A program made the position numbers and the translations under genes. This document shows positions 26,979 to 41,124 of a stretch of 64,000 bases of DNA, piece after piece (the stretch's first letter is position 1; each line of letters begins with the position of its first letter). This DNA is from a phage. The stretch lies in assembly GCA_004257845.1 (NCBI GenBank), contig GCA_004257845.1_4800.1. One strand, written 5' to 3'. The notes under the pieces were generated by a model. It saw only the letters and a list, made by a program, of their open reading frames with translations, did not search any database and was not told the origin of the DNA.

Positions 26979-27839
26979 TTAAAACTCTTCTGCGTCGGTC
27001 GGAGTTTCATTGACAGGACCAGCGGCACCGCTTGCTTCTTCCTGCTTGCTGCGGTCGATGTTAACGTTACCGCCAACTACGTCGTTGCGGAATGCCTTGG
27101 CGACTTCGTACAGACCTTTGTCCTGCACCAGACCTTCCAGCTCAAACTTCAGAACGGACCAGGTGTTGCCGTCTTTGGACTGGGATGCAGTACCCATGCG
27201 AACGATGTTCATAAAGGTCGGCGGCGTTTTCAAACCTTGCGGAGTTTGAACTTTCTTCTGCTGCAGCGCGGTCATCAGCATACGAGACGGCTTGATCATC
27301 GAAGAAGTCAAAGACAGCATGGCACTGCCAAATTCACCCGTTTCTTCGTTCAACAGAATCACGAAGTGGTTACGTGTATCTGCATAGTAAGGAGATTTCT
27401 TCTCGTGCACTTTGCCGTTTTCGTCCGGCACAAATACCTTACCGTTGATCTCAACAGCGCGGCCTGCCGCGACTTCTGCATCAACGTGCTCTTTGGTGAA
27501 TTCACCTTTAAAGCCTTTATCGTCGGACTCGCGACCGCCCCAAAGGATGAAGGTGCGTTTGAATGCGCAAGGGATGATCTGCACGCCTTTCTTGCCGTCA
27601 TACAACTCACCAGTAACGGTGTTGTAAAGCATGCCAGCTTTTGCACCAGGAACGTGTTTTGGATCATCTTCGTCGACCATAGGAGACATCTTCTGCAGGA
27701 CGACGATAAAAGGAATGGCATACGCATCGGCATCGGCACCTTCAAAACCAGCGCCAAAATCGGTCATGTCGACAAAATCAGCCATAGCGGACATCTGGGT
27801 GTTTTTCACTGCAACTTCGGTGGTTTCTTTCTTAGACAT
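26979..27839 (-). CDS. ssDNA-binding protein (T7 gp2.5-like), putative
   Basis: Acidic C-terminal tail ending ...TDAEEF (terminal aromatic), as in gp2.5-type SSBs; located in replication module. Confidence 0.4.
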   Translation of the reverse strand: MSKKETTEVAVKNTQMSAMADFVDMTDFGAGFEGADADAYAIPFIVVLQKMSPMVDEDDPKHVPGAKAGMLYNTVTGELYDGKKGVQIIPCAFKRTFILWGGRESDDKGFKGEFTKEHVDAEVAAGRAVEINGKVFVPDENGKVHEKKSPYYADTRNHFVILLNEETGEFGSAMLSLTSSMIKPSRMLMTALQQKKVQTPQGLKTPPTFMNIVRMGTASQSKDGNTWSVLKFELEGLVQDKGLYEVAKAFRNDVVGGNVNIDRSKQEEASGAAGPVNETPTDAEEF

Positions 27840-30314: not shown

Positions 30315-30733
30315 GACAATTCCTCTAAATACTTGATGATGTGATGGATGGACCCGCTCGCGGCGACCATAGCCAGAATCTCATGCTTAGTATATTCTTT
30401 TAATCGCAATGAAGGGTGAACTAAATAATAAGCCTTTTCAGAGTCCACCTTCAGCAACACGAATGACGAGAATTTCCAATCACTCCAAGAAGTCAAAAAG
30501 CTTTGTTGACCTTTCTCAAATGCGCTCTTGAAAGGAAGAGTGGTGGCCCTTGCAGGCCACGATTCAAAGAACTTCATTTCAAGCCAAAAGCCGCGCCCTT
30601 TCCGGTTGGTGCCGATTACGTCCGGCACACCATCACCCGTCATTGATTCGATTCTTTGAAGCTTCAAGATTGATTCTGAATGCTTCTTCAAAGGCACGAA
30701 TATGTATTTCTGTTCACGGTTATTTGTTGCCAT
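30311..30733 (-). CDS. VRR-NUC domain nuclease
   Basis: PD-(D/E)xK-like GVPDVIG...WLEMKF; 4-nt overlap with SNF2 helicase gene; start taken at internal Met just after polymerase stop. Confidence 0.5.
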   Translation of the reverse strand: MATNNREQKYIFVPLKKHSESILKLQRIESMTGDGVPDVIGTNRKGRGFWLEMKFFESWPARATTLPFKSAFEKGQQSFLTSWSDWKFSSFVLLKVDSEKAYYLVHPSLRLKEYTKHEILAMVAASGSIHHIIKYLEELS

Positions 30734-33617
30734 CTGGATACACCTGTTTGATAACGTCGACGATGAACATGTCAATGCCTTCAAGTTTGCGGCCTTTCAT
30801 CAGGAAGAATGCGCCGTTCCCGACGTTCTCTGCAATGTATTTCCCGTATTTCTGGAACTTCTCTGGACGAATCCTGAAGCGCATTGGCGAGTCGGTCGAA
30901 TCGTCCTTGCACATAAGGTCAATGAACTGAGTCTCAAGCTTGTTTCCATACTGGTCAAACTCTGCGTAGCGGCCATCAGCTTGAAGACCCTTTTTAAGTT
31001 TGCCGTGCTTTGTATAAATGCCGCGCTCAAGACGTTTACGGATGCGTGTCGCTTCGTTCTCGTCAGCCAGCACTTTCTTGGTCAACTTGCCGATCACTAT
31101 TGCACGCTCGTCATCGCCGACTTCCTTCATCTGGCGTATTGAAGCACCGGAAGTAACGCCAATCAGATAGGGGTCATTATATGCCCATCCGAACTTTGTG
31201 TGCATCTCTGTAAGGTCGCCGTATTTGACTTCAGCATTGGCCAATGCATCCTTTTGCTTTTGCGTTAAGGTTCCGGCTTCACGTGCTTCGATATACTTCA
31301 TCGCCTTCACCATGCCATATCCTTTTGCGTTCATGATGCCGCCGATTAGCTTTCCGTTAGCGATGGTCCAGTTCATTGAAGAGTGATCAGGGTCGATTGG
31401 CACATAATCCACGCCTTCCTTCGCAAGTTCACGTAATATCGCAATCGTCTGGTCTTCGTCCTTAGCAGCGCGTAAGCAAGCAGCGGCAAATTCCAACGGG
31501 TAGTGTCGCTTAAGCCACAAGGTCCAGTAGGTCACGACCGCGTATGATACGGAGTGTGACTTGTTAAAGCCCCATGACCCGAACGTCGCCATCGCTTGCC
31601 AAAGCTTTCTTGCATCCGCTTCCGGTACGCCGTTATTTATTGCTCCTGCAACGAAGTCTTCGCCAAGCTTGTTAAAGTATTCCTCACCCTTACGACCTGA
31701 CATCGCCTTACGTACAGCGGATGTTTTCGCCCAGTCAAATGAACCAATCTCTTTGACCACGGCCATGATTTGCTCTTGGTAAAGAAACACGCCGTAAGTC
31801 TCTTTTAAGTACGGCTCAAGCTGCGGCACGTCGTACTCAATCGGCGCACGTCCTGCCGCGCGTTCAATGTATTTCTGGGCCATACCGGACGACAACGGGC
31901 CAGGTCGGCCAAGTGCTGTCAGGTTATCGATTTTGTTAAAGTTATCAACGTGCACAAAGTTGGTTACTGAGCGTACAGCGTCGCCTTCAAACTGGAAGAT
32001 GCCTGACATCTTGTTTTCGTTAAGGATGTCAAGGACGCTTTGGTCATCAAGCTTGATTCCGTACAGCGTTTCAGCATCTATCACGCCAGTATCAGAAATG
32101 ATTCCGAGAGTACGAAGGCCCAGCGCATCAAGCTTCAAAAGGTTTAGGTATTCGCTGTCAGGCTTATCGATTTGCGCAATCCCTTCTGCAGTTACAGTAC
32201 AGTAATCAGAGATTGGGTCATTACACACAATGATTCCCGCTGCGTGAACACCTGTGTGAGACGGGTGAATCTCAAGGTCACCCATGCAACGCGCGGCGTC
32301 AGGATATTTCGCCACGAACTCTTGGCCCGTGGTCGTTGTTGCAAAGGTATCCTCCAGGCCGTGACCATAACGGGCGTCACCGGATGAGTATTCAAGCAGT
32401 GCGTTTTTAATGTTGGCTGTTTCGTGGTATCCAATGTTGAACTTCTTACCAACTTGAGCCATTACTGAGTTGGCCTTAAGCGTGTTGATGTTGCCAAGCT
32501 TTGCAACGTTCATTTCGCCGTATTTCTCTTTAAGATAATCAAACACCATATAGCGTTTGGTATCTTCAAAGTCGATGTCGATGTCAGGAAGGTCGGCGCG
32601 GCTTACGTCGATGAATCGGGCAAACAGTAGCTTATACGGGATTGGGTCCACTTCCGTGATGCCGAGGCAATAGCAAACAAGTGAACCAGCCGATGAGCCG
32701 CGAGCAGGACCGACGAGCATTTTTGTTTTTGCGAATCGTACAAGGTCTGCTACCACCAGAAAGTATGAGTCGAAATCTTTCAGCTGAATCTGGTGAATTT
32801 CTTCGTTGAAGCGGTCCTCGTATTCCTGAGTCCATTCTTTGATGTGACCTGCTTTGAGACGGTACTCCATGCCCTCACGCGCAAGCTTTACCATGTCACC
32901 AGCAAGGTGAATAATCGGTGCCTTACGCAATTTCAGGTCAAGTCCGACTATGCCGTTTGCTATGTCAACAGCATTGGCCGTTGCCTGATTGAGCTCATCT
33001 TCAGTCAAGATGCCTTTAAGCTGTTTTCGCAAGTCTTCCGCGTCAACGATGCAATGCGGCTTCACCGTGTCGCGCACTTCCCAAGCATAAGCAAAGTCAA
33101 CGTGCTCAGGTGAAGGCATGTGGTTGTATCCGGTTAAAACCAGCGGCCTTCCACCACTACGATGAGCCAACACCTGGCGCTTTGCCAAAAGGAACGACGA
33201 TGGGTTGACGTCTATATAGTCGTAGTCCTCTGGCCGCAGCAGTTCCACGGCACCGCCACAGAATTTAACGACGCCATCGAGCGCCCCGAACTCTGCACGG
33301 GTAAGACCACCACGCTGCGTTGCAAGTGTTGTAGCGTTGTAAAAAGATTTTAAGTCAAGGGCCAATATCCAAGCCTTCGGTTTGAATCCCTTTTTCGGGT
33401 CCGCATCAGGGTCGATGATTGGAATCTCCATTCCAAACATAGGATTAATATCATTTTTCTGGCATTCCTTTTCCCAGCGAACGTGACCCCATGTGTTGTT
33501 ATCAACTAATGCCGCGACTTCGCAGCCCAACTCTTTGAGCCGTGCTATAATTTCAGGATGCCGTCCATAAACTTCTTTGAACGTGTAACCGCTGCGAACT
33601 CTCAATTGTGGAAACAT
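30720..33617 (-). CDS. dnaE: DNA polymerase III alpha subunit-like (DnaE-type) replicative polymerase
   Basis: Catalytic palm motif LPDIDIDFED, FNKSHSVSYAVVTYWTLWLKRHYPLEF, GRPGP; N-terminal PHP-like region. Confidence 0.8.
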   Translation of the reverse strand: MFPQLRVRSGYTFKEVYGRHPEIIARLKELGCEVAALVDNNTWGHVRWEKECQKNDINPMFGMEIPIIDPDADPKKGFKPKAWILALDLKSFYNATTLATQRGGLTRAEFGALDGVVKFCGGAVELLRPEDYDYIDVNPSSFLLAKRQVLAHRSGGRPLVLTGYNHMPSPEHVDFAYAWEVRDTVKPHCIVDAEDLRKQLKGILTEDELNQATANAVDIANGIVGLDLKLRKAPIIHLAGDMVKLAREGMEYRLKAGHIKEWTQEYEDRFNEEIHQIQLKDFDSYFLVVADLVRFAKTKMLVGPARGSSAGSLVCYCLGITEVDPIPYKLLFARFIDVSRADLPDIDIDFEDTKRYMVFDYLKEKYGEMNVAKLGNINTLKANSVMAQVGKKFNIGYHETANIKNALLEYSSGDARYGHGLEDTFATTTTGQEFVAKYPDAARCMGDLEIHPSHTGVHAAGIIVCNDPISDYCTVTAEGIAQIDKPDSEYLNLLKLDALGLRTLGIISDTGVIDAETLYGIKLDDQSVLDILNENKMSGIFQFEGDAVRSVTNFVHVDNFNKIDNLTALGRPGPLSSGMAQKYIERAAGRAPIEYDVPQLEPYLKETYGVFLYQEQIMAVVKEIGSFDWAKTSAVRKAMSGRKGEEYFNKLGEDFVAGAINNGVPEADARKLWQAMATFGSWGFNKSHSVSYAVVTYWTLWLKRHYPLEFAAACLRAAKDEDQTIAILRELAKEGVDYVPIDPDHSSMNWTIANGKLIGGIMNAKGYGMVKAMKYIEAREAGTLTQKQKDALANAEVKYGDLTEMHTKFGWAYNDPYLIGVTSGASIRQMKEVGDDERAIVIGKLTKKVLADENEATRIRKRLERGIYTKHGKLKKGLQADGRYAEFDQYGNKLETQFIDLMCKDDSTDSPMRFRIRPEKFQKYGKYIAENVGNGAFFLMKGRKLEGIDMFIVDVIKQVYPDGNK

Positions 33618-34159
33618 TATTTACTCCAGATGTCATATACGCCAATTTGTTGGCAGACTTTGTGCAGTAATATTACGTCGTCTAATGCACGGTGTTTCTG
33701 TTCATATTTTCCGAAATATAATTCATACAGCTCTTGAAGCTTAACTCTTCGGCCAAAAATAGGCAAGGTTTGCTCAACTGTACAAATGTTTATTTCTGGA
33801 AAATTAACATCATCAAGCGTAAGTCCTTCGCGCTGTAGTGCATAATCAAGAATGTTTTTATCGAACGCATGGTTGTGCGCGATAGTTGCATCAGTCTTCT
33901 TGAAGATTTCTTTTAGCTGCGGGACGAAATTGATGAACGGTGGATTGCACTCAAGGTCTTCATTTGTTAATCCGGTAATCTTTGTGATAATTTCTTCAAT
34001 CACGATTTCAGGATTAATTATGAATTCAAACGTTTCAAGAATCTCTTTGCCGTCTGTCAACAGACCTGCAAATTCAATAGGGCGCGGCTGCATCCCAAGC
34101 GGCGCTTTCGGGTGCACGGTCAATCCGGTTGTTTCGAAGTCATAAGGGAGAAATAACAC
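33617..34159 (-). CDS. dnaQ: DnaQ-like 3'-5' exonuclease (DEDDh)
   Basis: Exo I YDFETTGL, Exo II IAHNHAFDKNIL, Exo III HRALDDV. Confidence 0.75.
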   Translation of the reverse strand: MLFLPYDFETTGLTVHPKAPLGMQPRPIEFAGLLTDGKEILETFEFIINPEIVIEEIITKITGLTNEDLECNPPFINFVPQLKEIFKKTDATIAHNHAFDKNILDYALQREGLTLDDVNFPEINICTVEQTLPIFGRRVKLQELYELYFGKYEQKHRALDDVILLHKVCQQIGVYDIWSK

Positions 34160-34213
34160 ATTAGCCTCCTACAAAAAGGCCGCCCATTAGGACGGCCACA
34201 GATTCACGATTCG

Positions 34214-34765
34214 TTATACAGTGTACGGAGTACCGTCTTGATTCAAGCGCACGATAAACTTCAAATCAACGCCGATGATTTCACGCGTATCAAAGATCAC
34301 ATAGTTGTAACGACGTTGACCAGCAATGTTCGGGTTGGTATGAGAGTCAGTTACAACTTCCTGTGCAACCTGAATGCCTTCTTCGCTAAAGAACTTACGC
34401 CATTCAGCAAGTTCAGCGGCAGTTACGTGCATACCAAGATGGCTAACCTGATTGTCATGCGCATCGATATATTCGATGTTTTCGTTAATCCAGTTGCAGC
34501 CCATTGTGTAGTCAAGGATTTCAAGCTCAAGAGGCTTACCAGCGCCGCCATCAGTACCGTTGCCAGCCTGATAGTTGAAGCGCAAGTCAGCTTCATTGGT
34601 GCAATCGTCGCGACGACCTTTAAAGTCATCAGCTTCAAATACGCGACCAGTAGCAACAACATGATCATGGAACCATTCTGTCAGGCCGATTTTAGCCAAG
34701 AAATCCTGTGCGCGCTGAGCATCTGGAATTGACAGGGCGATTTGTTCAATTTTAAAATGTGGCAT
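34214..34765 (-). CDS. hypothetical protein (possibly VOC/glyoxalase-like)
   Basis: ORF; weak resemblance only. Confidence 0.3.
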   Translation of the reverse strand: MPHFKIEQIALSIPDAQRAQDFLAKIGLTEWFHDHVVATGRVFEADDFKGRRDDCTNEADLRFNYQAGNGTDGGAGKPLELEILDYTMGCNWINENIEYIDAHDNQVSHLGMHVTAAELAEWRKFFSEEGIQVAQEVVTDSHTNPNIAGQRRYNYVIFDTREIIGVDLKFIVRLNQDGTPYTV

Positions 34766-34861
34766 TTTGTTTCCTTAATTAAATATTATTGATTAATTAC
34801 TGTGTTGTCTTCGTCCTGTTTCTTTTCAGGAGCGGGTGTGACAACTTCAAATGTTCGTGAT

Positions 34862-35545
34862 TTATTTACCAAATGGAATATCAGTACCAGACATAAAGCG
34901 CCATGCGCCAGTAATTAAGATATGGCGAATGAAGTCAGCAATTACTTGCGGCTCAGTCTCCAATCCATTCATCAATGCCTTTTTCTGGTATTCAGCAGCG
35001 TATTCAGGAGTCCAGCCGCGAGTCGCGCAAACGGCATCTTCAATCTGTTTAGACATGCCAGTGCCGCGCAACTTGTTAGGACTAATAGAGAATACCGTGA
35101 TGCCGTACTTAGGCGTAAGTTCGTGAGCCATCTGCTTGCTGATCATAAGCGCAGCAGCCTTGGATGCATTATAACACAAGCTGGACGTCATAGGAATATG
35201 CGCAGCGTTGGAAACGATGTTGATCACAAAGCCTTTGTTGTCGATAAGACTTTTCAGCGCAGCCTGAGTCGTGTTAACGAAAGAGAATGCGTTGGTGTGC
35301 ATAACGCGGTTAAACTCTTCATAGTTTACATCTTCAAACCAATTGTTAGAGTTGACACCAGCACAGTTGATCAAGCCTTCAACATCATATGGGCTTAAAA
35401 TTTCTTTCATCTGTTTAGCATCGCGGACGTCATATCCGTATGCTGAATCGATGCCAAGCACGTTATGACCGTAAGCGCCAAGGGTGTCAAAAATAGATTT
35501 ACCAAGACCGGAATTGGAACCTGTTACAACAATTACTTTTTTCAT
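34862..35545 (-). CDS. short-chain dehydrogenase/reductase (SDR)
   Basis: TGSNSGLGKS (TGxxxGxG), NCAG, catalytic YNASK (YxxxK). Confidence 0.7.
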   Translation of the reverse strand: MKKVIVVTGSNSGLGKSIFDTLGAYGHNVLGIDSAYGYDVRDAKQMKEILSPYDVEGLINCAGVNSNNWFEDVNYEEFNRVMHTNAFSFVNTTQAALKSLIDNKGFVINIVSNAAHIPMTSSLCYNASKAAALMISKQMAHELTPKYGITVFSISPNKLRGTGMSKQIEDAVCATRGWTPEYAAEYQKKALMNGLETEPQVIADFIRHILITGAWRFMSGTDIPFGK

Positions 35546-35610
35546 TTATTTATCCTTTTTGGACTTCGTTTCGATGAGGTAAATATAACTCATCGAAACG
35601 CACAAGTAAA

Positions 35611-36483
35611 CTATTTATTGAAATTAATATTATGGGTGTTTACAAGACGTTCACACATGGCGCTATAAACACCATCGTCGTGTATTGAGTCTTCGTGCTT
35701 CAGGCCGCTGATTGCGAAGCGTGTAAGCTTGACAATCTTAAGCTCGAACAGATGCCACATGTGGTAGTCTTCCGGCGTTTTCAGCGTCACGCCATTAGGG
35801 AACAACACCTGCATAACCTGACCTACCATCACAGCGTTATCGCCATAAACGGCATTGCGCTCACGGAAGGTCGCGGCCATCGCATCAAGAATATCGGCGG
35901 CAGTTGCCGGAGATTGTTCAACTTCCACAGCCTTAGTCTCTTCTTGCCCTGTTGCGCTTGGATCAATTGCTAATTGTTGCACCACTTCACCTGCTTTGCA
36001 AAGATTAAATGTAAAAGCGATTTTATTTTGAGCAACGGAGTTATAATACAATGCTTCATCTTGCATCCGCGCGAGTACGTCTTGTCGGTCGTCGAATACA
36101 TTGATGATTCGATAATCGCCGTGCCGCAAAGCGTGCGATAGCCATGCAGATTTCATAATAGTTGATGGACGTTTGTCGCCATAGTCTCTCATCTTGATTG
36201 TAAATTCATCAAAAGGGAAAACATTGTCCAGACGTTCAAAAGTCACTTGTCTGTATTTTTCTGGCCTTGCAGTCCAATATTCAACCGCCTCACCGCGAAG
36301 AGATGCCGACTCTACTGCTGATGCAATGTGAGGATAGAACTGATCATAACCAATACCGCTGTGATAGTCATCATAGTCTGACAACGGACCTGCCACCTTG
36401 ATGCGGTCTAAGCGCCAACGGTCATCAAACAGCGTTCCGTCAAGGTCGAATACGTTTAAGATTTCGCTGTTTTTAATGCTCAT
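35611..36483 (-). CDS. HAD-superfamily phosphatase-like protein
   Basis: Motif I VFDLDGTLFD; later INVFDD. Confidence 0.5.
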   Translation of the reverse strand: MSIKNSEILNVFDLDGTLFDDRWRLDRIKVAGPLSDYDDYHSGIGYDQFYPHIASAVESASLRGEAVEYWTARPEKYRQVTFERLDNVFPFDEFTIKMRDYGDKRPSTIMKSAWLSHALRHGDYRIINVFDDRQDVLARMQDEALYYNSVAQNKIAFTFNLCKAGEVVQQLAIDPSATGQEETKAVEVEQSPATAADILDAMAATFRERNAVYGDNAVMVGQVMQVLFPNGVTLKTPEDYHMWHLFELKIVKLTRFAISGLKHEDSIHDDGVYSAMCERLVNTHNINFNK

Positions 36484-37283
36484 CCTTTTGATACTCCATC
36501 TTTAGCAACTGGATTGTTGGTGATTGGCATTGCACTCCAAAACTGGATGCGCAACTCTTCTTGCTGTGCCGTGGTATCCATCCAATCACGATACCAAGGG
36601 CAATGGGCTTTGCCATGACGAGGAAACGCGCACTTACCCATACCGATGCACTGAGGCTGTAGTAAAGGATTGGCCCACGGGTGCACCTTAAGGACTTCCG
36701 CAACCATTGCACGGAATACTTCTTGATACTCGCCTTGAGTACGCGTGCACAAGCGGTTAGAGGCCATTTGTTGCAGAGTGCGCAAGTTGAACTTTGCCAT
36801 GATATGCGTTTGCATATTAGAAGGCAACACGGCACGTGCATCTTGAATCTCTGCGCCAGCCGCGCGAAGTTCTTGGTATAGGGCGTCAATGGTTGCCATT
36901 GCATCATCCCATTTCTCTGCCAGTTCAGCAGCCTTCTCGTCATGACGAGTCCATCCCTTTGGATCATCCTCTGGGTAAGTAAATTTGGCAGGACGAATCG
37001 CATCAAATGCTGACGACTCCTGAGCGCGGCTTGTGCGTTCTTGATATGCACCTGTGCGTGTGCGCACCATCTGATGAGTCATATTCTTTGATACATCAGT
37101 GATGTCAAAGATATAGTCCACAAAGTCAAAAGGCGACTTGATTGTATCAAGCATGTAGCGCCAGTGCTCTTGCTTCTCTGATTCTGTCATCTCAGAGACT
37201 GGCTTACCAGTCATGCGCGTGTTCTTTGTTTCCAGCAAAAGGTCAAGTGCATCTTGGGTGTATCGAATTAATTCAACTTTCAT
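36480..37283 (-). CDS. thyX: flavin-dependent thymidylate synthase (ThyX)-like protein, RTR variant
   Basis: THQMVRTRTGAYQERTSR aligns with ThyX signature (Q..RHR..SY.E.S.R) but has Thr in place of His in RHR. Confidence 0.55.
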   Translation of the reverse strand: MKVELIRYTQDALDLLLETKNTRMTGKPVSEMTESEKQEHWRYMLDTIKSPFDFVDYIFDITDVSKNMTHQMVRTRTGAYQERTSRAQESSAFDAIRPAKFTYPEDDPKGWTRHDEKAAELAEKWDDAMATIDALYQELRAAGAEIQDARAVLPSNMQTHIMAKFNLRTLQQMASNRLCTRTQGEYQEVFRAMVAEVLKVHPWANPLLQPQCIGMGKCAFPRHGKAHCPWYRDWMDTTAQQEELRIQFWSAMPITNNPVAKDGVSKG

Positions 37284-37296
37284 TTTAATTATCCTA

Positions 37297-37743
37297 TTAA
37301 CGGTAATTCACTAGTTGCTGATCACCAGAGAAGGTGCAATGATAAACGAATTGTGCGTTATAAAGCAACTGAAAACTTTTCTTTGGTTCATTATTAGAAC
37401 TCATTGATGTAAAGATTTCTGCACCAGAACGGTTTTCACCAATCAGGTTAATAAAGCCGCCAGTTGAACGAGGCTGAACGAAAGTGAAACGCTGCATCCA
37501 CGGAGTCCGGTTGGCACCTTTTCCAGTGAATCCCTGAATCTGAATATTCAGACCTTCTTGCTCGTTCACACCGATGTAAGTGGTAATTGTTGCGCCAGTC
37601 GTCGCTGCGGTCTTGCCGTCCATCGCTTCGCAATCGTAAACAGCGATTGAATCGGAAGTACGGACAGCGGCTTCAGTCGCTTCCATATACATGGTTCCGA
37701 GAATAGCAGTCGCGGCAAGCGCGATTCCAGTGATGCGTTTCAT
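37297..37743 (-). CDS. secreted protein, hypothetical
   Basis: Signal-peptide-like N-terminus MKRITGIALAATAILGTMYMEA. Confidence 0.4.
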   Translation of the reverse strand: MKRITGIALAATAILGTMYMEATEAAVRTSDSIAVYDCEAMDGKTAATTGATITTYIGVNEQEGLNIQIQGFTGKGANRTPWMQRFTFVQPRSTGGFINLIGENRSGAEIFTSMSSNNEPKKSFQLLYNAQFVYHCTFSGDQQLVNYR

Positions 37744-37808
37744 TTTCGTTTCCTCTATGAGTTCTGCTTCAATGATTAAAGTATACGCCCATTGAAGCAG
37801 AAAGCAAA

Positions 37809-38804
37809 TTATTTATTAGCAATATAAGCAAATTTTTGATAGTTATTTGCTTTGATGAGTTTTTCAACTTCAGCAAGGTCATGAGCGACGTCATCAAGCA
37901 AAATGTTTCGCCAAGTAGCGAATCGACCGACACTAAATACGTTCAAATCCATAGTCAACTGGAGCAGTAAGGCGTGGCGCAAGTCTTTCGGAATGTCGAC
38001 AATTTTGCCATACTTCTGGTCAACCTTTTCAACTTCTTCCAAAGAGATGTCATTCCATGAAAGACCAAAAGCGGTAAGAACTTCATCCACTTCTGCACGC
38101 AGCTTCATGTCGCGATAACGGGTAATGCCGCCAGCGGCTTCAACTGCTGCCGCGCTGACGCTTACCAATGGAATTGTTTCAATGATCAGCGTGTCACCAG
38201 TGATTGATGCGCGGTAAGTCCTTACAGAATAGTCAGGGAAGTAAATTGTTTGATAAAGTTCACACTTGCGCTTAATCTTAAAACGATAAACGCGAATATT
38301 TGCCTTATCAAACGAGAAGTCGAGTTTTTGATCAATACCAGCAAGCTTCATCATGACTGGCAGCGGCGATGTGTTGATGATTGGCGTCTCGCTATAGCCG
38401 CAAAGCGTGTCGACCGGAGTATTAAAGAATATACGGTCACCCAGTTTATCGACAAGTTGATCATAAAAGTCATCCGGCGCTATGTAGCGCGTAGCAGTTT
38501 GAAGCTTCATGATTGAGCGGCTGCCAAACTGGTTGGTGACTTTCATAGAGTACATGTTGGCAAGGTTAATCGGGCAGTGGTCGTGATAGTAGTTGCCGCG
38601 AAAATACACAGCCTTATCGACTGTCACGGCCTTAAAGGGGATTCCGGTAATACGGCTTACTTCTTCGCCGCGAAATCGTAGCAGCGCCTTGTGCTGCGCG
38701 ACGCGTTCGCCTGCTTCGTACACAATAGAGTTCGGAAAGTGACAAGCCGTGATAAGTCCTGCCAGTCCGCCGCCGATAATCATTACAGGTTGTTTCATGT
38801 TCAT
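37809..38804 (-). CDS. FAD/NAD(P)-binding Rossmann-fold oxidoreductase-like protein
   Basis: N-terminal VMIIGGGLAGLITA (GxGxxG) followed by IVYEAG. Confidence 0.5.
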   Translation of the reverse strand: MNMKQPVMIIGGGLAGLITACHFPNSIVYEAGERVAQHKALLRFRGEEVSRITGIPFKAVTVDKAVYFRGNYYHDHCPINLANMYSMKVTNQFGSRSIMKLQTATRYIAPDDFYDQLVDKLGDRIFFNTPVDTLCGYSETPIINTSPLPVMMKLAGIDQKLDFSFDKANIRVYRFKIKRKCELYQTIYFPDYSVRTYRASITGDTLIIETIPLVSVSAAAVEAAGGITRYRDMKLRAEVDEVLTAFGLSWNDISLEEVEKVDQKYGKIVDIPKDLRHALLLQLTMDLNVFSVGRFATWRNILLDDVAHDLAEVEKLIKANNYQKFAYIANK

Positions 38805-38888
38805 TTGTCCTTTGTGGGTGATATGATAAGTATAATAGCTAAATTATCTTACAGCAACAAGTCATTTTATTTAGTACAGACGAAAAAA

Positions 38889-38909
38889 GACCCACAACTG
38901 GTGTGGGTC
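38889..38909 (-). terminator. intrinsic terminator downstream of Lys/Ala/Glu-rich protein gene
   Basis: Stem GACCCACA / TGTGGGTC followed on the minus strand by TCTTTTTTC. Confidence 0.65.
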
Positions 38910-38937: not shown

Positions 38938-39786
38938 TTATTCTGCTTGATCGTCGTGCTCTTCGGCATCTGCTTCGGATTCAACATCGATGAACTCGAT
39001 GTGGCCCATCTCTTCCAGTTTGCTCAGGTAAGAGCGAACTGAAGCGCCAAACAGCTGATCTTTAACTTTTTCACCCAGCTCGTCGATAGACTGCGGCTGA
39101 CCGATTTCACCTTCTTTGATCGCAGCCAGTACGCGACCACGGGTGGAATGTTCTTGCGGCTGGCTCAGGCCGTTTCCGGTGTAAACAAAGTGAGTTGCTT
39201 TAGCGCGACGCTGACCATTAGCTTTCTTGGCGGCTTTACGCTCTGCAATCGCTTTGCGACGCTCTTCAGCTTCTTTCTTACGCTGTTCTTTCTGTTGTTC
39301 TGCAGCTTCTTTCGCCGCAATCTTAGCAGCTTCACGCTCTGCCTTGCGTTTCGCTTTCGCTTCTTCTTTAGCCTTTTCTTTTTCGGCTTTCGCTTCTGCA
39401 CGGGCCTGATCACGTTCAGCCTTTTTCGCCGCAGCTTGTTCAGCTTTCAGGCGCTTGGCTTCTTCTTTCGCCTTTGCCTTTTCAATTTCTTTAGCGGCTT
39501 TAGCGGCTTCACGCTCTGCCTTCTTAGCAGCAGCCTTTTCAGCACGCTCTGCAGCCTTCTTAGCGGCTTCTTCAGCACGCTTCTGAGCCTTCTCGTCAGC
39601 AGCCTGCTTGCGTTTCAGCGCAGCTTCTTCACGCTTGGCTTGTTTTTCCTGCTCACGCTTCTGGCGTTTTTCTTCGGCTTCTTTCTTTTTAGCCAGGCGT
39701 TTTTCTTCAGCCACGCGACGACGTTCTGCTGCAGCTGCTTGTTTTTCTTCTTTAGATAATACTTTGATTGCTTCGGCCATATTCAC
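38938..39786 (-). CDS. Lys/Ala/Glu-rich low-complexity protein with C-terminal globular domain (histone H1-like composition)
   Basis: About 190 aa of KAE-rich repeats (KKAAERAEKAAAKKAEREAAKAAKE...) then non-repetitive C-terminus; strong terminator downstream. Confidence 0.5.
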   Translation of the reverse strand: MNMAEAIKVLSKEEKQAAAAERRRVAEEKRLAKKKEAEEKRQKREQEKQAKREEAALKRKQAADEKAQKRAEEAAKKAAERAEKAAAKKAEREAAKAAKEIEKAKAKEEAKRLKAEQAAAKKAERDQARAEAKAEKEKAKEEAKAKRKAEREAAKIAAKEAAEQQKEQRKKEAEERRKAIAERKAAKKANGQRRAKATHFVYTGNGLSQPQEHSTRGRVLAAIKEGEIGQPQSIDELGEKVKDQLFGASVRSYLSKLEEMGHIEFIDVESEADAEEHDDQAE

Positions 39787-39939
39787 AGTCCTTAAATAAA
39801 TTAGTTTATTTTATATTCCCCGTTTGGGATAACTTAATTGTGCCTTAAGTCGCCGCCAGTAGCAACTAAAAACTATGGCGGAAATGCCACTTTAATTAAA
39901 CTGATTTTCAGTTTTATTTTTCGTAAATTTACGTCAACA

Positions 39940-41124
39940 TTAACGCGCTTTCAAATCACGGTACACGGTCAGATTCTTCTTAGCACGGGTGATAGCTGTG
40001 TACATCATCTTGGAGTACGGAACGCCGCGCAAGATTTCTTCCAGCACGCACACATTGTCCCACTCGCTGCCTTGCGATTTGTGCACCGTGATGACATAGC
40101 CATAATCCATCCCGCCAACAGCGCGTTGGGCCTCTTTGCGCACTTCCTGATCAGTAGAGAAGGAAAGAGGATTAATCTTAACCTTTATATCTTTGCCATC
40201 GGTAAGCGAGCGCAAATTGACATACATGATTTCATTGGACTCGTCTTCGTCCCTTTCAAAGTCCGGCACTGGTTCATAGCTAATAACAATCCCTTGCTCG
40301 CCATTACAGAATCCTGGCCCGTGCTGGTTGAAGGTGCAAATAACTTTCTCGCCGATTCCTGGCATTGGCGTTATACGTCCGCTCACTTGCCGTAATAATG
40401 AATTCCATTTATCTTTGGTGCTATTATAGGAGCAAATAATTTGATCATCTTCGCCCATGAATTTCTTCAATGCAGTAACGCGCGGCGATTCTGCCAGAAC
40501 TTTTACATCGTCGTATTCACGCGGAGGAAGGCGGTTGCCTTGGCGCACGAAGAAGGAGGCGCGGATGATGTTGGACTCTTTCCCTTGGCGCATGATTTCT
40601 GTTAACAGTACGTCAACGGCTTCTTCGGTAAAGTAGGCGGCGGCTTTTACCGGAGGGACTTGTCCAATGTCGCCTAATGCCAGGACAGGGATGCGGTGAT
40701 CAAGAAGGCGCTCTGTGTCCCACTCGCCAACCATTGACGCTTCATCAAGAACAACAAGGAGCGGCTTTTCGTCCAGCTTTGACTTTCTCGAGAATATTGG
40801 CTCATTGTCGTCATTTACGCCGCGCACGTTATAGATGAACTGGTGAAGGGTCTTAGCTCCACGACAGCCTTTTTGCTTTAATCGGCTTGCAGCCTTTCCG
40901 GTAGGCGCAATATAGATAGCGCCGTACTCACCGACACAGCGGCGCACAATCTCGCGAGCAATAGAGGTTTTACCAGTCCCTGCATAGCCAGCGATGAAAA
41001 ACACGCGCTTCGTCGTTTTACCGTCCTGCAATCGCTTGTACCATGCAACGGCCTTCTCGATGGCATCGATTTGTTGCGCGTTAAACTGAATCACTGGCTC
41101 ATCATTAAATTCTGGAATGTTCAT
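39940..41124 (-). CDS. SF1 DNA helicase, RecD/Dda-like
   Basis: Walker A GYAGTGKTS, VVLDEASMV, C-terminal TVHKSQGSEWD. Confidence 0.75.
   Translation of the reverse strand: MNIPEFNDEPVIQFNAQQIDAIEKAVAWYKRLQDGKTTKRVFFIAGYAGTGKTSIAREIVRRCVGEYGAIYIAPTGKAASRLKQKGCRGAKTLHQFIYNVRGVNDDNEPIFSRKSKLDEKPLLVVLDEASMVGEWDTERLLDHRIPVLALGDIGQVPPVKAAAYFTEEAVDVLLTEIMRQGKESNIIRASFFVRQGNRLPPREYDDVKVLAESPRVTALKKFMGEDDQIICSYNSTKDKWNSLLRQVSGRITPMPGIGEKVICTFNQHGPGFCNGEQGIVISYEPVPDFERDEDESNEIMYVNLRSLTDGKDIKVKINPLSFSTDQEVRKEAQRAVGGMDYGYVITVHKSQGSEWDNVCVLEEILRGVPYSKMMYTAITRAKKNLTVYRDLKAR

What the first reader, a model, noticed from the sequence alone, without database searches (positions are those of the whole stretch)
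38938..39786. Lys/Ala/Glu-rich repetitive protein with a globular C-terminal domain
About 190 residues of KAE-rich low complexity (histone H1 / AlgP-like composition) followed by a non-repetitive C-terminus, on its own transcription unit with a strong terminator. Such proteins can coat DNA (nucleoid remodelling, anti-restriction or genome protection) or act as internal virion proteins. The opposite-strand ORFs here (39148-39759 etc.) are low-complexity artefacts.
Basis: partly seen in the sequence, partly recalled or inferred. Interest (0 to 1): 0.5.

Follow-up and report, generated by a model that had tools for sequence, protein, structure and literature searches.

The report
Abundant long-helix, winged-helix phage protein
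This is a real, highly expressed gene of an E. coli phage related to the Pseudomonas therapy phages, encoding one ~27 nm charged helix ending in a small DNA-binding-type domain; its job is unknown, and the best guess is that it binds and organises phage DNA.

Summary
The minus-strand gene 38938..39780 (280 aa; the true start is the ATG at 39780, not the GTG at 39786) lies in a Wifcevirus genome. It encodes about 180 residues rich in Ala/Lys/Glu/Arg, a globular C-terminal domain and an acidic tail. It has a sigma-70-like promoter and a strong terminator of its own.

The "histone H1/AlgP-like" label does not hold:
- The region has 22% acidic residues and no Pro or Gly.
- It is predicted as one continuous helix.
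- In orthologues it is nearly charge-neutral.
- The conserved feature is a Lys/Arg stripe with 11/3 periodicity, with Asp/Glu on the opposite face.
- It is under strong purifying selection (dN/dS about 0.02).

The C-terminal domain is a winged helix with a near-invariant third helix.

The family (PHROG 4765, function unknown) is confined to PB1-like phages: 357 phage records and 41 clusters among 1.8 billion proteins. It always sits in the replication and nucleotide-metabolism module.

Codon bias ranks second only to the major capsid gene. Published mass spectrometry found the orthologue in CsCl-purified Wifcevirus preparations.

The best reading is an abundant DNA-associated architectural or scaffold protein, analogous to KfrA (confidence about 0.35). 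Replisome adaptor, packaged genome-protection protein and transcription factor remain open. Interest is moderate.

The parts
38938..39780 (-). Coding sequence, 280 aa plus stop (stop codon 38938-38940). Orthologue of Mansfield gp73, Bas98_0054, vB_Eco4M-7 gp83 ('TolA protein'), Pbunavirus 14-1 ORF66 and SCUT-S1 ORF69.
39220..39753 (-). Residues 10-187: one continuous alpha-helix (about 27 nm if straight). It is rich in Ala/Lys/Glu/Arg, with Lys/Arg on one face at 11/3 (3.68-residue) periodicity and Asp/Glu about 180 degrees opposite. dN/dS is 0.02-0.03.
   Evidence: AF2 model; periodicity; selection; composition
39193..39219 (-). Residues 188-196 (NGQRRAKAT): conserved basic arm, G-x-R-R-x-K-A-T-H, between the helix and the domain.
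   Evidence: alignments, (R of RR near-invariant); low pLDDT at 188-191
38986..39192 (-). Residues 197-265: winged-helix domain (strand, H1, strand, H2, H3, strand). Helix 3 (SVRSYLSKLEEMGH) is nearly invariant across genera.
38941..38985 (-). Residues 266-280: disordered acidic tail (net -8). The acidity is conserved (net -4 to -15 in six genera) but the sequence is not (dN/dS about 0.5).
39789..39793 (-). Shine-Dalgarno AAGGA, 8 nt upstream of the ATG.
39837..39865 (-). Putative sigma-70-like promoter: TTGCTA, 17 nt, CACAAT. Similar TTGCnn-17-nAnAAT motifs lie upstream of the orthologues in the other genera. This is a consensus match only.
39875..39890 (-). Weak hairpin plus T-run after the upstream Dda-like helicase gene. 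It may be a partial terminator that separates the two units.
38879..38909 (-). Intrinsic terminator: GACCCACA-CCAGT-TGTGGGTC followed by TTTTTT.
   Evidence: conserved position in orthologues

Best explanation
The gene encodes an abundant, non-enzymatic protein of the replication and nucleotide-metabolism module shared by PB1-like myoviruses (Wifcevirus, Pbunavirus, Kylevirus, Bcepfunavirus, Carpasinavirus and relatives).

Shown or predicted here: it has four parts.
- A continuous helix of about 178 residues, with a basic stripe and an acidic stripe on opposite faces.
- A short basic arm.
- A C-terminal winged-helix domain.
- An acidic tail.

Inferred mechanism:
- The winged helix and the arm bind nucleic acid, most likely phage DNA.
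- The charge-striped helices associate with each other or lie along DNA. Many copies would then build a scaffold that organises or condenses replicating phage DNA.
- This resembles plasmid KfrA proteins, which have a winged-helix head and a long helical tail and polymerise on DNA.
- The acidic tail would modulate binding or recruit partners.
- Because the protein is abundant and DNA-associated, some of it travels with particles in CsCl gradients.
For: Reality and expression:
- PHROG 4765, E 7e-83.
- dN/dS 0.02-0.05.
- Orthologue peptides were found by mass spectrometry: 7 peptides, 25.8% coverage, score 1197.6 against 1112.31 for portal (PMC7048862).

Abundance:
- Fop is 0.77, rank 1 of 60 ORFs. 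After correcting for amino-acid composition, z is 5.3, rank 2 behind the major head protein.
- The monocistronic layout, with a sigma-70-like promoter and a strong terminator, recurs in six genera.

Fold:
- AF2 gives a helix over residues 10-187 (model mean pLDDT 84.6) and a C-domain with pTM 0.68.

Nucleic-acid-type conservation:
- Invariant or near-invariant residues are the arm Arg, S-x-R at the start of H1, Arg at the start of H3 and K-L in H3.
- Helix 3 aligns in register with the LexA recognition helix: Sporomusa LexA 49% identity over 47 aa, hhalign 94.9%.

The helix is functional:
- The K/R periodicity of 3.68 was reached by none of 300 shuffles in five of six genera.
- Opposite K/R and D/E faces appear in 22 family members.

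Context:
- The gene always lies in the replication module, immediately after the Dda-like helicase in six genera.
- Even in a distant lineage it lies upstream of the same flavoprotein, ThyX and Pol III alpha block.

KfrA precedent: PMC7821693.
Against: - No DNA binding, oligomerisation or localisation has been measured for any family member.
- No Pfam wHTH or KfrA_N model is matched.
- The LexA resemblance is significant only for a sequence picked out by a pattern scan. E. coli LexA gives 0.9% probability.
- Most orthologues are net neutral or acidic overall, which is unusual for a DNA-coating protein.
- A monomer AF2 model cannot distinguish a single stable helix from a coiled coil.
Confidence: 0.35

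Rival explanations
1. Replisome adaptor or spacer. The winged helix and acidic tail are protein-binding modules, as in RPA32C, archaeal PBP2 or SSB tails. They would dock on the Dda-like helicase, the Pol III alpha-type polymerase or a host factor. The rigid helix would act as a spacer or ruler of fixed length.
For: - Single family members give weak Pfam PBP2 (E 0.084) and RPA_C (E 0.25) hits.
- The domain core is acidic and the acidic tail is conserved.
- The gene always follows the Dda-like helicase in PB1-like phages.
- Helix length is similar (about 165-180 residues) in five of the six genera compared.
- No SSB or loader is annotated in the genome.
Against: - Codon bias equal to structural proteins argues for stoichiometric amounts, not the catalytic amounts of a replisome accessory.
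- In the distant lineage the upstream neighbour is DUF932, not the helicase.
- The residue-level constraint along the whole helix (dN/dS 0.02) and the charge stripes are more than a passive spacer needs.
Confidence: 0.2
2. Packaged genome-associated protein. It would be loaded into the capsid with the DNA and injected, protecting incoming DNA from restriction or other DNA-targeting defences.
For: - The orthologue was detected in CsCl-purified virions of two Wifceviruses, with a score comparable to portal in one.
- It was absent from Pbunavirus SCUT-S1 'ghosts', whose DNA had been released and digested, as expected for a DNA-bound passenger.
- Wifceviruses resist almost all tested restriction-modification systems with no known protection mechanism (PMC11990801).
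- The Wifcevirus version is unusually basic, net +14.
Against: - The same virion preparations contained a glyoxalase-like protein, a helicase and an endolysin (vB_Eco4M-7) or a reductase and an endolysin (ECML-117). The glyoxalase-like and reductase genes are among the most codon-biased non-structural genes, so carry-over of abundant proteins explains the data.
- The signal in ECML-117 is very weak: 2 peptides, score 3.2.
- The gene sits in the replication operon behind a sigma-70-type promoter, not in the structural module.
- The main text of the Pbunavirus E217 cryo-EM paper mentions no mass spectrometry or proteomics, and the passages retrieved from the Pa193 cryo-EM/LC-MS paper do not mention this protein. 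Their supplementary tables could not be read.
- The adjacent flavoprotein/ThyX/PNKP/SDR module is an alternative explanation for restriction resistance.
Confidence: 0.12
3. Sequence-specific transcription regulator. A dimeric wHTH would switch on the phage-specific (non-sigma-70) promoters or repress early genes.
For: - The winged-helix fold resembles repressors (MecI/BlaI, Fur, ArsR, and LexA in register) and the T4 MotA N-terminal domain.
- Pbunavirus 14-1 has 11 promoters with a non-sigma-70 motif, whose activator is not established (PMC10914365).
Against: - Regulators are not normally expressed at capsid-like levels.
- A 27 nm helix has no obvious role in a regulator.
- The authors of the 14-1 study favour gp12 for these promoters.
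- Helix 3 is nearly invariant across phages of different hosts with unrelated intergenic sequences.
Confidence: 0.08
4. Unconventional single-stranded-DNA-binding protein. It would fill the apparent lack of an SSB in these genomes.
For: - No SSB is annotated.
- The hallmarks of phage SSB genes are present: a monocistronic unit, very high predicted expression, an acidic C-terminal tail and a position next to a Dda-type helicase.
Against: - There is no OB fold; the model is a helix plus a winged helix.
- Other uncharacterised abundant proteins exist, for example the Pam3_Gp34-family protein at 26979..27839.
- The host SSB may be used.
Confidence: 0.05

Closest known systems
KfrA-type proteins of IncP-1/IncU plasmids (R751, RA3)
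   Same: Both have a globular winged-helix-type DNA-binding head and a long, Ala-rich and charged alpha-helical tail. KfrA oligomerises and forms filaments on its DNA site (PMC7821693). Both are encoded by mobile elements, next to replication or partition functions.
   Different: - The domain order is reversed: here the helix is N-terminal and the winged helix C-terminal.
- There is no sequence relationship; Pfam KfrA_N is not matched.
- This protein has an acidic tail and a basic arm.
- It is encoded by lytic phages.
- No DNA binding or filament formation has been shown.
TolA (the label carried by several database records)
   Same: A long Ala/Lys/Glu-rich helical segment, like TolA domain II. 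This composition is what attracts the annotation.
   Different: There is no N-terminal membrane anchor and no TolA C-terminal domain. The C-terminal domain is a winged helix. The gene context is cytoplasmic replication. The annotation is a low-complexity artefact.
Histone H1 C-terminal tail / Pseudomonas AlgP (KPAA repeats)
   Same: Richness in Lys and Ala. The Wifcevirus version is net basic.
   Different: It has 22% acidic residues and no Pro or Gly. It is predicted as a rigid helix rather than a disordered tail. Basicity is not conserved in orthologues.
Winged-helix DNA-binding domains of LexA / BlaI-MecI / Fur / ArsR type
   Same: The same fold and register. Helix 3 (SVRSYLSKLEEMGHI) matches the recognition helix plus the 'L..LE..G.I' turn.
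   Different: No Pfam model of these families is matched. The wing is short and acidic. An extra N-terminal strand is present. There is no effector or dimerisation domain of those families.
Hendecad (11/3) amphipathic helices: group-3 LEA proteins, apolipoproteins, alpha-synuclein (comparison from general knowledge)
   Same: An 11-residue periodicity places like charges in straight stripes along a long helix.
   Different: Those helices have an apolar face for membranes or self-association. Here the stripes are basic against acidic, with only a weak Ala face.

Membership tests
PHROG 4765 (phage protein family of unknown function) | Full-length match to the family profile | tested here: met
   E 7.3e-83, residues 1-278 on profile positions 14-270 of 294. 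Distant members also match through the C-domain.
TolA | N-terminal transmembrane anchor (domain I) | tested here: not met
   The N-terminus is MAEAIKVLSKEEK. Only 11 LIVMFWY residues occur in the first 188, and there is no hydrophobic stretch.
TolA | C-terminal TolA domain III | tested here: not met
   No Pfam family matches at E up to 10. The C-domain model is a winged helix.
TolA | Long Ala/Lys/Glu-rich helical domain II | tested here: met
   AF2 predicts a helix over residues 10-187; composition. This is the only feature shared.
Histone H1 / AlgP-like basic tails | Strongly basic with few acidic residues, a property conserved in relatives | tested here: not met
   42 Asp+Glu in 188 residues. 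The N-terminal part of orthologues is net +2 to +9, and whole proteins range from -23 to +14.
Histone H1 / AlgP-like basic tails | Pro-containing short repeats, intrinsically disordered | tested here: not met
   No Pro or Gly in the region. No tandem repeats. Predicted as a continuous helix with pLDDT above 90.
KfrA-type plasmid proteins | KfrA_N DNA-binding head (Pfam KfrA_N) at the N-terminus | tested here: not met
   No Pfam hit for the whole protein, the C-domain or 32 family members. The globular domain is C-terminal.
KfrA-type plasmid proteins | Architecture: winged-helix-type head plus long alpha-helical tail | tested here: met
KfrA-type plasmid proteins | Oligomerisation and filament formation on specific DNA | not testable with these tools
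   Needs SEC-MALS, EM and EMSA. No multimer prediction was available.
Winged-helix (wHTH) fold | H1-strand-H2-H3-strand(s) topology that superposes on solved winged helices | tested here: met
LexA_DNA_bind / MarR / other curated wHTH families | Significant match to the family HMM | tested here: not met
   None of 32 members reaches significance (MarR_2 E 0.13, one member; LexA_DNA_bind none). Sporomusa LexA gives hhalign 94.9% but was picked by a pattern scan; E. coli LexA gives 0.9%.
ER/K single alpha-helix (SAH) domains | Dense i to i+4 Glu-Lys/Arg pairs on the same face that stabilise a monomeric helix | tested here: inconclusive
   The i+3/i+4 opposite-charge pair density is 0.39 per residue against 0.32 in shuffles (z 2.2). 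K/R and D/E sit on opposite faces, which is not the classical SAH pattern.
Phage SSB (T4 gp32 / T7 gp2.5 type) | OB-fold ssDNA-binding core | tested here: not met
   The model contains only a long helix and a winged helix.
Virion structural protein (the label in many Pbunavirus records) | Reproducible presence in purified particles | tested here: inconclusive
   From the literature only. Present in CsCl preparations of vB_Eco4M-7 (strong) and ECML-117 (weak), together with enzymes. Absent from the 31 proteins of SCUT-S1 ghosts.

The most novel reading that the evidence does not exclude
The protein is a phage 'chromatin' component. It would be made in capsid-like amounts and coat the phage genome through its winged helix, basic arm and the basic stripe of a 27 nm helix. 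Part of it would be packaged and injected with the DNA. This coating would then account for the so far unexplained resistance of Wifceviruses to most restriction-modification systems.
Probability: 0.1. Interest if true: 0.75.

Novelty: new variant of a known kind. Interest (0 to 1): 0.42.

Why it matters
Pbunaviruses are among the Pseudomonas phages most used for personalised therapy (PMC11990801). Wifceviruses are reported to replicate exceptionally fast and to resist restriction without a known mechanism.

This gene is conserved in all of them. By codon bias it is predicted to be the second most highly expressed gene in this genome. Yet it is labelled 'TolA', 'structural protein', 'transcription initiation factor' or 'hypothetical'.

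Three results would be useful:
- Showing that it is a DNA-organising scaffold, or a genome-protecting passenger, would add a new type of phage nucleoid protein.
- It would explain part of the biology of a therapeutically important phage group.
- It would correct a widely propagated mis-annotation.

If the protein turns out to be a simple replisome spacer, the finding is of specialist interest only.

Tried and rejected
Searches that gave nothing:
- Pfam on the whole protein, the C-domain and 32 family members.
- PDB sequence searches. A single sequence gave only chance alphaRep/HEAT hits. The family profile gave only insignificant L18 and YejK hits.

Leads rejected:
- YejK/NA37. Three weak signals came to only 27% probability in hhalign, so I rejected it as evidence.
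- LexA. The match to Sporomusa LexA is strong. That sequence was picked by a scan for YLSKLEEM, E. coli LexA is not significant and Pfam LexA_DNA_bind matches no member. I kept it only as support for the register of the fold.
- TolA, H1/AlgP and classical SAH readings are rejected or left open in the membership table.
- A scaffolding-protein reading is rejected. The Pbunavirus scaffold candidate has been assigned elsewhere (Pa193 gp24), and this gene lies in the replication operon.

Technical limits:
- The first word-index protein search timed out. Later ones returned only fragments, so the structure alignments were shallow (8 sequences).
- BFVD found only uncharacterised orthologues.

Literature that could not be read:
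- Ceyssens 2009 (PB1-like virion proteome) is not held.
- The supplements of the Pa193 LC-MS paper and of the 14-1 ONT-cappable-seq paper are not held.
- The KTN6 and JG024 papers contain no proteome for this gene.
- The HiBiT-tagging study of vB_Eco4M-7 did not tag gp83.

The scan of bacterial genomes found no bacterial or prophage homologue, only a probable contaminant contig and LexA.

Full report
Where the window comes from. The 1.3 kb around the finding is 92-95% identical to 29 phage records, almost all of them Escherichia or Shigella phages of the genus Wifcevirus (TH32, WFH, WFC, FEC19, Mansfield, vB_Eco4M-7, BASEL Bas98-101). The gene lies on the minus strand between a Dda/RecD-like helicase gene (39940..41124) and a UDP-galactopyranose-mutase-like flavoprotein gene (37809..38804). 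This is inside the replication and nucleotide-metabolism block: ThyX, HAD/PNKP phosphatase, SDR, glyoxalase-like protein, epsilon exonuclease and Pol III alpha.

Checking the observation.
- ORF and start. The mechanical ORF is 38938..39786 with a GTG start. The ATG at 39780 has an AAGGA Shine-Dalgarno 8 nt upstream, and annotated orthologues start MAEAIKV, so the protein is 280 aa.
- Composition. Residues 11-200 are 30% Ala, 23% Lys, 21% Glu and 12% Arg. Residues 201-265 are ordinary. Residues 266-280 are acidic.
- Repeats. There are no tandem DNA repeats.
- Terminator. A strong intrinsic terminator follows the gene, and equivalent terminators follow the orthologues in five other genera.
- Promoter. 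A sigma-70-like motif (TTGCTA, 17 nt, CACAAT, 39865..39837) lies upstream, with similar motifs in the other genera. This is a consensus match, not proof of a promoter.
- Antisense ORFs. The antisense and alternative-frame ORFs are Phe/Leu/Ser-rich mirror images and match no family.

The N-terminal part is not an H1-like tail.
- It has 42 acidic residues and no Pro or Gly in 188 residues.
- AlphaFold2 predicts a single uninterrupted helix from residue 10 to 187, with pLDDT above 90 over most of it. That is about 27 nm if straight.
- Strong basicity is a Wifcevirus peculiarity. The N-terminal part is net +23 here, but +9 in Pbunavirus 14-1, +8 in Kyle, +3 in BCSR52, +4 in FoX6 and +2 in Gekk3-15. 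Whole proteins in the family range from -23 to +14.
- The conserved feature is a pattern. Lys/Arg recur with a period of 3.68 residues (11/3). None of 300 shuffles reached this power in five of six genera.
- In all 22 family members examined, Asp/Glu lie roughly 120-180 degrees from the Lys/Arg face, near 180 degrees in most. The helix therefore carries a straight basic stripe and a straight acidic stripe.
- Between Wifcevirus isolates the helix shows 34-37 synonymous but only 3-4 non-synonymous differences (dN/dS 0.02-0.03). It is more constrained than the globular domain (0.05). The acidic tail is relaxed (0.45-0.54).
The 'low-complexity' region is thus a precisely conserved structural element. 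Whether it is a single stable helix, a hendecad coiled coil or a DNA-contacting surface cannot be decided from a monomer model. The classical ER/K single-helix pattern is only weakly present (z 2.2).

The C-terminal domain.
- Both AF2 models give strand, H1, strand, H2, H3, strand.
- Helix 3 (SVRSYLSKLEEMGH) is nearly invariant from E. coli phages to Pseudomonas, Burkholderia, Xanthomonas and Aeromonas phages.
- Across 32 diverse members, the invariant or near-invariant residues are an Arg of the preceding G-x-RR-x-K-A-T-H arm, S-x-R at the start of H1, a Gly before H3, Arg at the start of H3 and K-L within H3. I read this pattern (my inference from general knowledge of wHTH proteins) as typical of nucleic-acid-contacting wHTH domains.
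- A scan of 185,579 bacterial genomes found no bacterial homologue. It did pick up Sporomusa LexA, whose DNA-binding domain aligns in register: 49% identity over 47 residues, hhalign 94.9%. E. coli LexA aligns in the same register without significance, and Pfam LexA_DNA_bind matches no member. This supports the fold and register, not family membership.
- Weak hits to the nucleoid protein YejK/NA37 did not survive a profile comparison (27%).

Distribution and context.
- The family is PHROG 4765, function unknown.
- tblastn with the C-domain finds it in 357 phage records: 293 Pseudomonas (Pbunavirus) records, Wifcevirus, and Serratia, Pantoea, Burkholderia, Xanthomonas and Aeromonas phages.
- An exhaustive HMMER search of 1.84 billion cluster representatives finds only 41.
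- In six genera the gene directly follows the Dda-like helicase.
- Distant members have a different, non-helical N-terminal domain and the same winged helix. They belong to another phage lineage, where the upstream neighbour is a DUF932 protein. The downstream genes are again a 38-40% identical flavoprotein, then ThyX, HAD-PNKP, SDR, glyoxalase, RNase_T and Pol III alpha.
The stable association is therefore with this replication and nucleotide module as a whole.

Expression.
- All 25 Arg codons are CGT or CGC, and 9 of 10 Leu codons are CTG.
- Fop is 0.77, the highest of 60 ORFs.
- After correcting for amino-acid composition the gene ranks second (z 5.3), behind the major head protein (z 8.1) and ahead of the tail sheath.
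- Together with the conserved monocistronic layout, this predicts a very abundant protein.

Published proteomics.
- The orthologue ('TolA protein', gp83) was found in CsCl-purified vB_Eco4M-7 with 7 peptides, 25.8% coverage and a score of 1197.6 (portal 1112.31). In ECML-117 the signal was weak (2 peptides) (PMC7048862).
- The same preparations contained a glyoxalase-like protein, a helicase and an endolysin (vB_Eco4M-7) or a reductase and an endolysin (ECML-117). The glyoxalase-like and reductase genes are among the other codon-biased non-structural genes. Carry-over of abundant proteins is therefore a sufficient explanation.
- In Pbunavirus SCUT-S1, the orthologue (ORF69, labelled 'putative structural protein' by homology) is not among the 31 proteins found in LiCl/DNase ghost particles. 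Its neighbours ORF70 and ORF72 were found at trace level (PMC6521218).
- Both results fit either a DNA-bound passenger or a contaminant.

Interpretation. The best-supported model is an abundant, DNA-associated architectural or scaffold protein. The winged helix and basic arm would bind DNA. The charge-striped helices would self-associate or line up on DNA. The acidic tail would modulate binding or recruit partners. The closest functional analogue is KfrA of IncP-1/IncU plasmids, which has a winged-helix head and a long helical tail and forms filaments on DNA (PMC7821693). The domain order here is reversed and there is no sequence relationship.
- Shown: gene structure, conservation, selection, periodicity and codon bias.
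- Predicted: the fold.
- Inferred: nucleic-acid binding, oligomerisation and role.
I put confidence at about 0.35.

Rival readings.
- Replisome adaptor or ruler (0.2). Winged helices such as RPA32C and PBP2 bind proteins, and the domain core and tail here are acidic.
- Packaged genome-protection protein (0.12). This reading is attractive because BASEL found Wifceviruses resistant to nearly all tested restriction systems without a known mechanism (PMC11990801). The adjacent flavoprotein/ThyX/PNKP/SDR module is an alternative candidate for that phenotype.
- Transcription factor for the phage-specific promoters seen in 14-1 (0.08).
- Unconventional SSB (0.05). No SSB is annotated.
- The TolA annotation is a low-complexity artefact: there is no membrane anchor and no TolA domain III.

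Verdict. This is a real and well-conserved but uncharacterised phage protein whose database labels are wrong or unsupported. Its H1/AlgP analogy is not supported. Its functional guesses remain possible but untested. I rate novelty as a new variant of a known kind (winged-helix head plus long helical tail) and interest as moderate (0.42).

Noticed in passing
window 30720..38804 (minus strand); L013 8666..16210: The block downstream of the gene runs in this order: UGM-like flavoprotein (37809..38804), a 148-aa ORF, ThyX (36480..37283), HAD/PNKP phosphatase, SDR (34862..35545), glyoxalase-like protein (34214..34765), epsilon exonuclease and Pol III alpha (30720..33617). It is kept in the same order in a distant phage lineage, where the flavoprotein is 38-40% identical. 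It could be a nucleotide or DNA-modification pathway. That would be relevant to the unexplained restriction resistance of Wifceviruses reported by the BASEL study.
   Followed up: partly
window 37297..37743 (-): A 148-aa ORF inside the nucleotide-metabolism operon has a signal-peptide-like N-terminus (MKRITGIALAATAILGTMYMEATEAA), matches no Pfam or PHROG family, and has fairly high codon bias (Fop 0.63). An exported protein is unexpected at this position.
   Followed up: no
window 26979..27839 (-): A 286-aa protein of the Pam3_Gp34 family (Pfam PF23977, PHROG 2402, function unknown) has the third-highest composition-corrected codon bias (z 5.1). Its orthologue (vB_Eco4M-7 gp70) was detected with 12 peptides in virion preparations. 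It is a second abundant protein of unknown function in the replication region.
   Followed up: partly
family members P0012, P0013, P0015, P0020, P0021, P0022 (metagenomic relatives): Six of 19 helix-type family members start with a His-rich segment (4-6 His in the first 25 residues, for example MSHGHHNHGVSDAGHSHN). This hints at metal binding at the far end of the helix. The window protein lacks it.
   Followed up: no
P0035, P0037-P0040, P0042; loci L013, L014, L017: Distant relatives keep the winged-helix domain but replace the long helix with a different globular N-terminal domain of about 60 residues (motif TYNALTGK..RF.SRAIAE.R; weak match to PHROG 4730) plus a linker. The helix and the winged helix are therefore separable modules.
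   Followed up: partly
L018 (Xanthomonas pisi DSM 18956, 506-bp contig NZ_JPLE01000168.1): A 506-bp contig in a Xanthomonas genome assembly encodes a C-domain 92% identical to this E. coli phage protein. It is most likely phage or cross-sample contamination of the assembly.
   Followed up: no
window 39926..39954 and 39875..39890 (-): A second promoter-like site (TTGAAA, 17 nt, TAAATT) overlaps the end of the helicase gene. A weak hairpin with a T-run follows it, upstream of the promoter proposed for the gene. This may reflect attenuation or read-through control between the helicase operon and this gene.
   Followed up: no
orthologues in L006 (BCSR52), P0011, P0023, P0026 compared with the others: The N-terminal helical regions measured (regex-delimited, in some members including a non-helical lead-in) range from about 120 to over 250 residues, with loose groupings near 121-124 and 155-180. 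The gap between those two groupings is roughly five 11-residue units.
   Followed up: no
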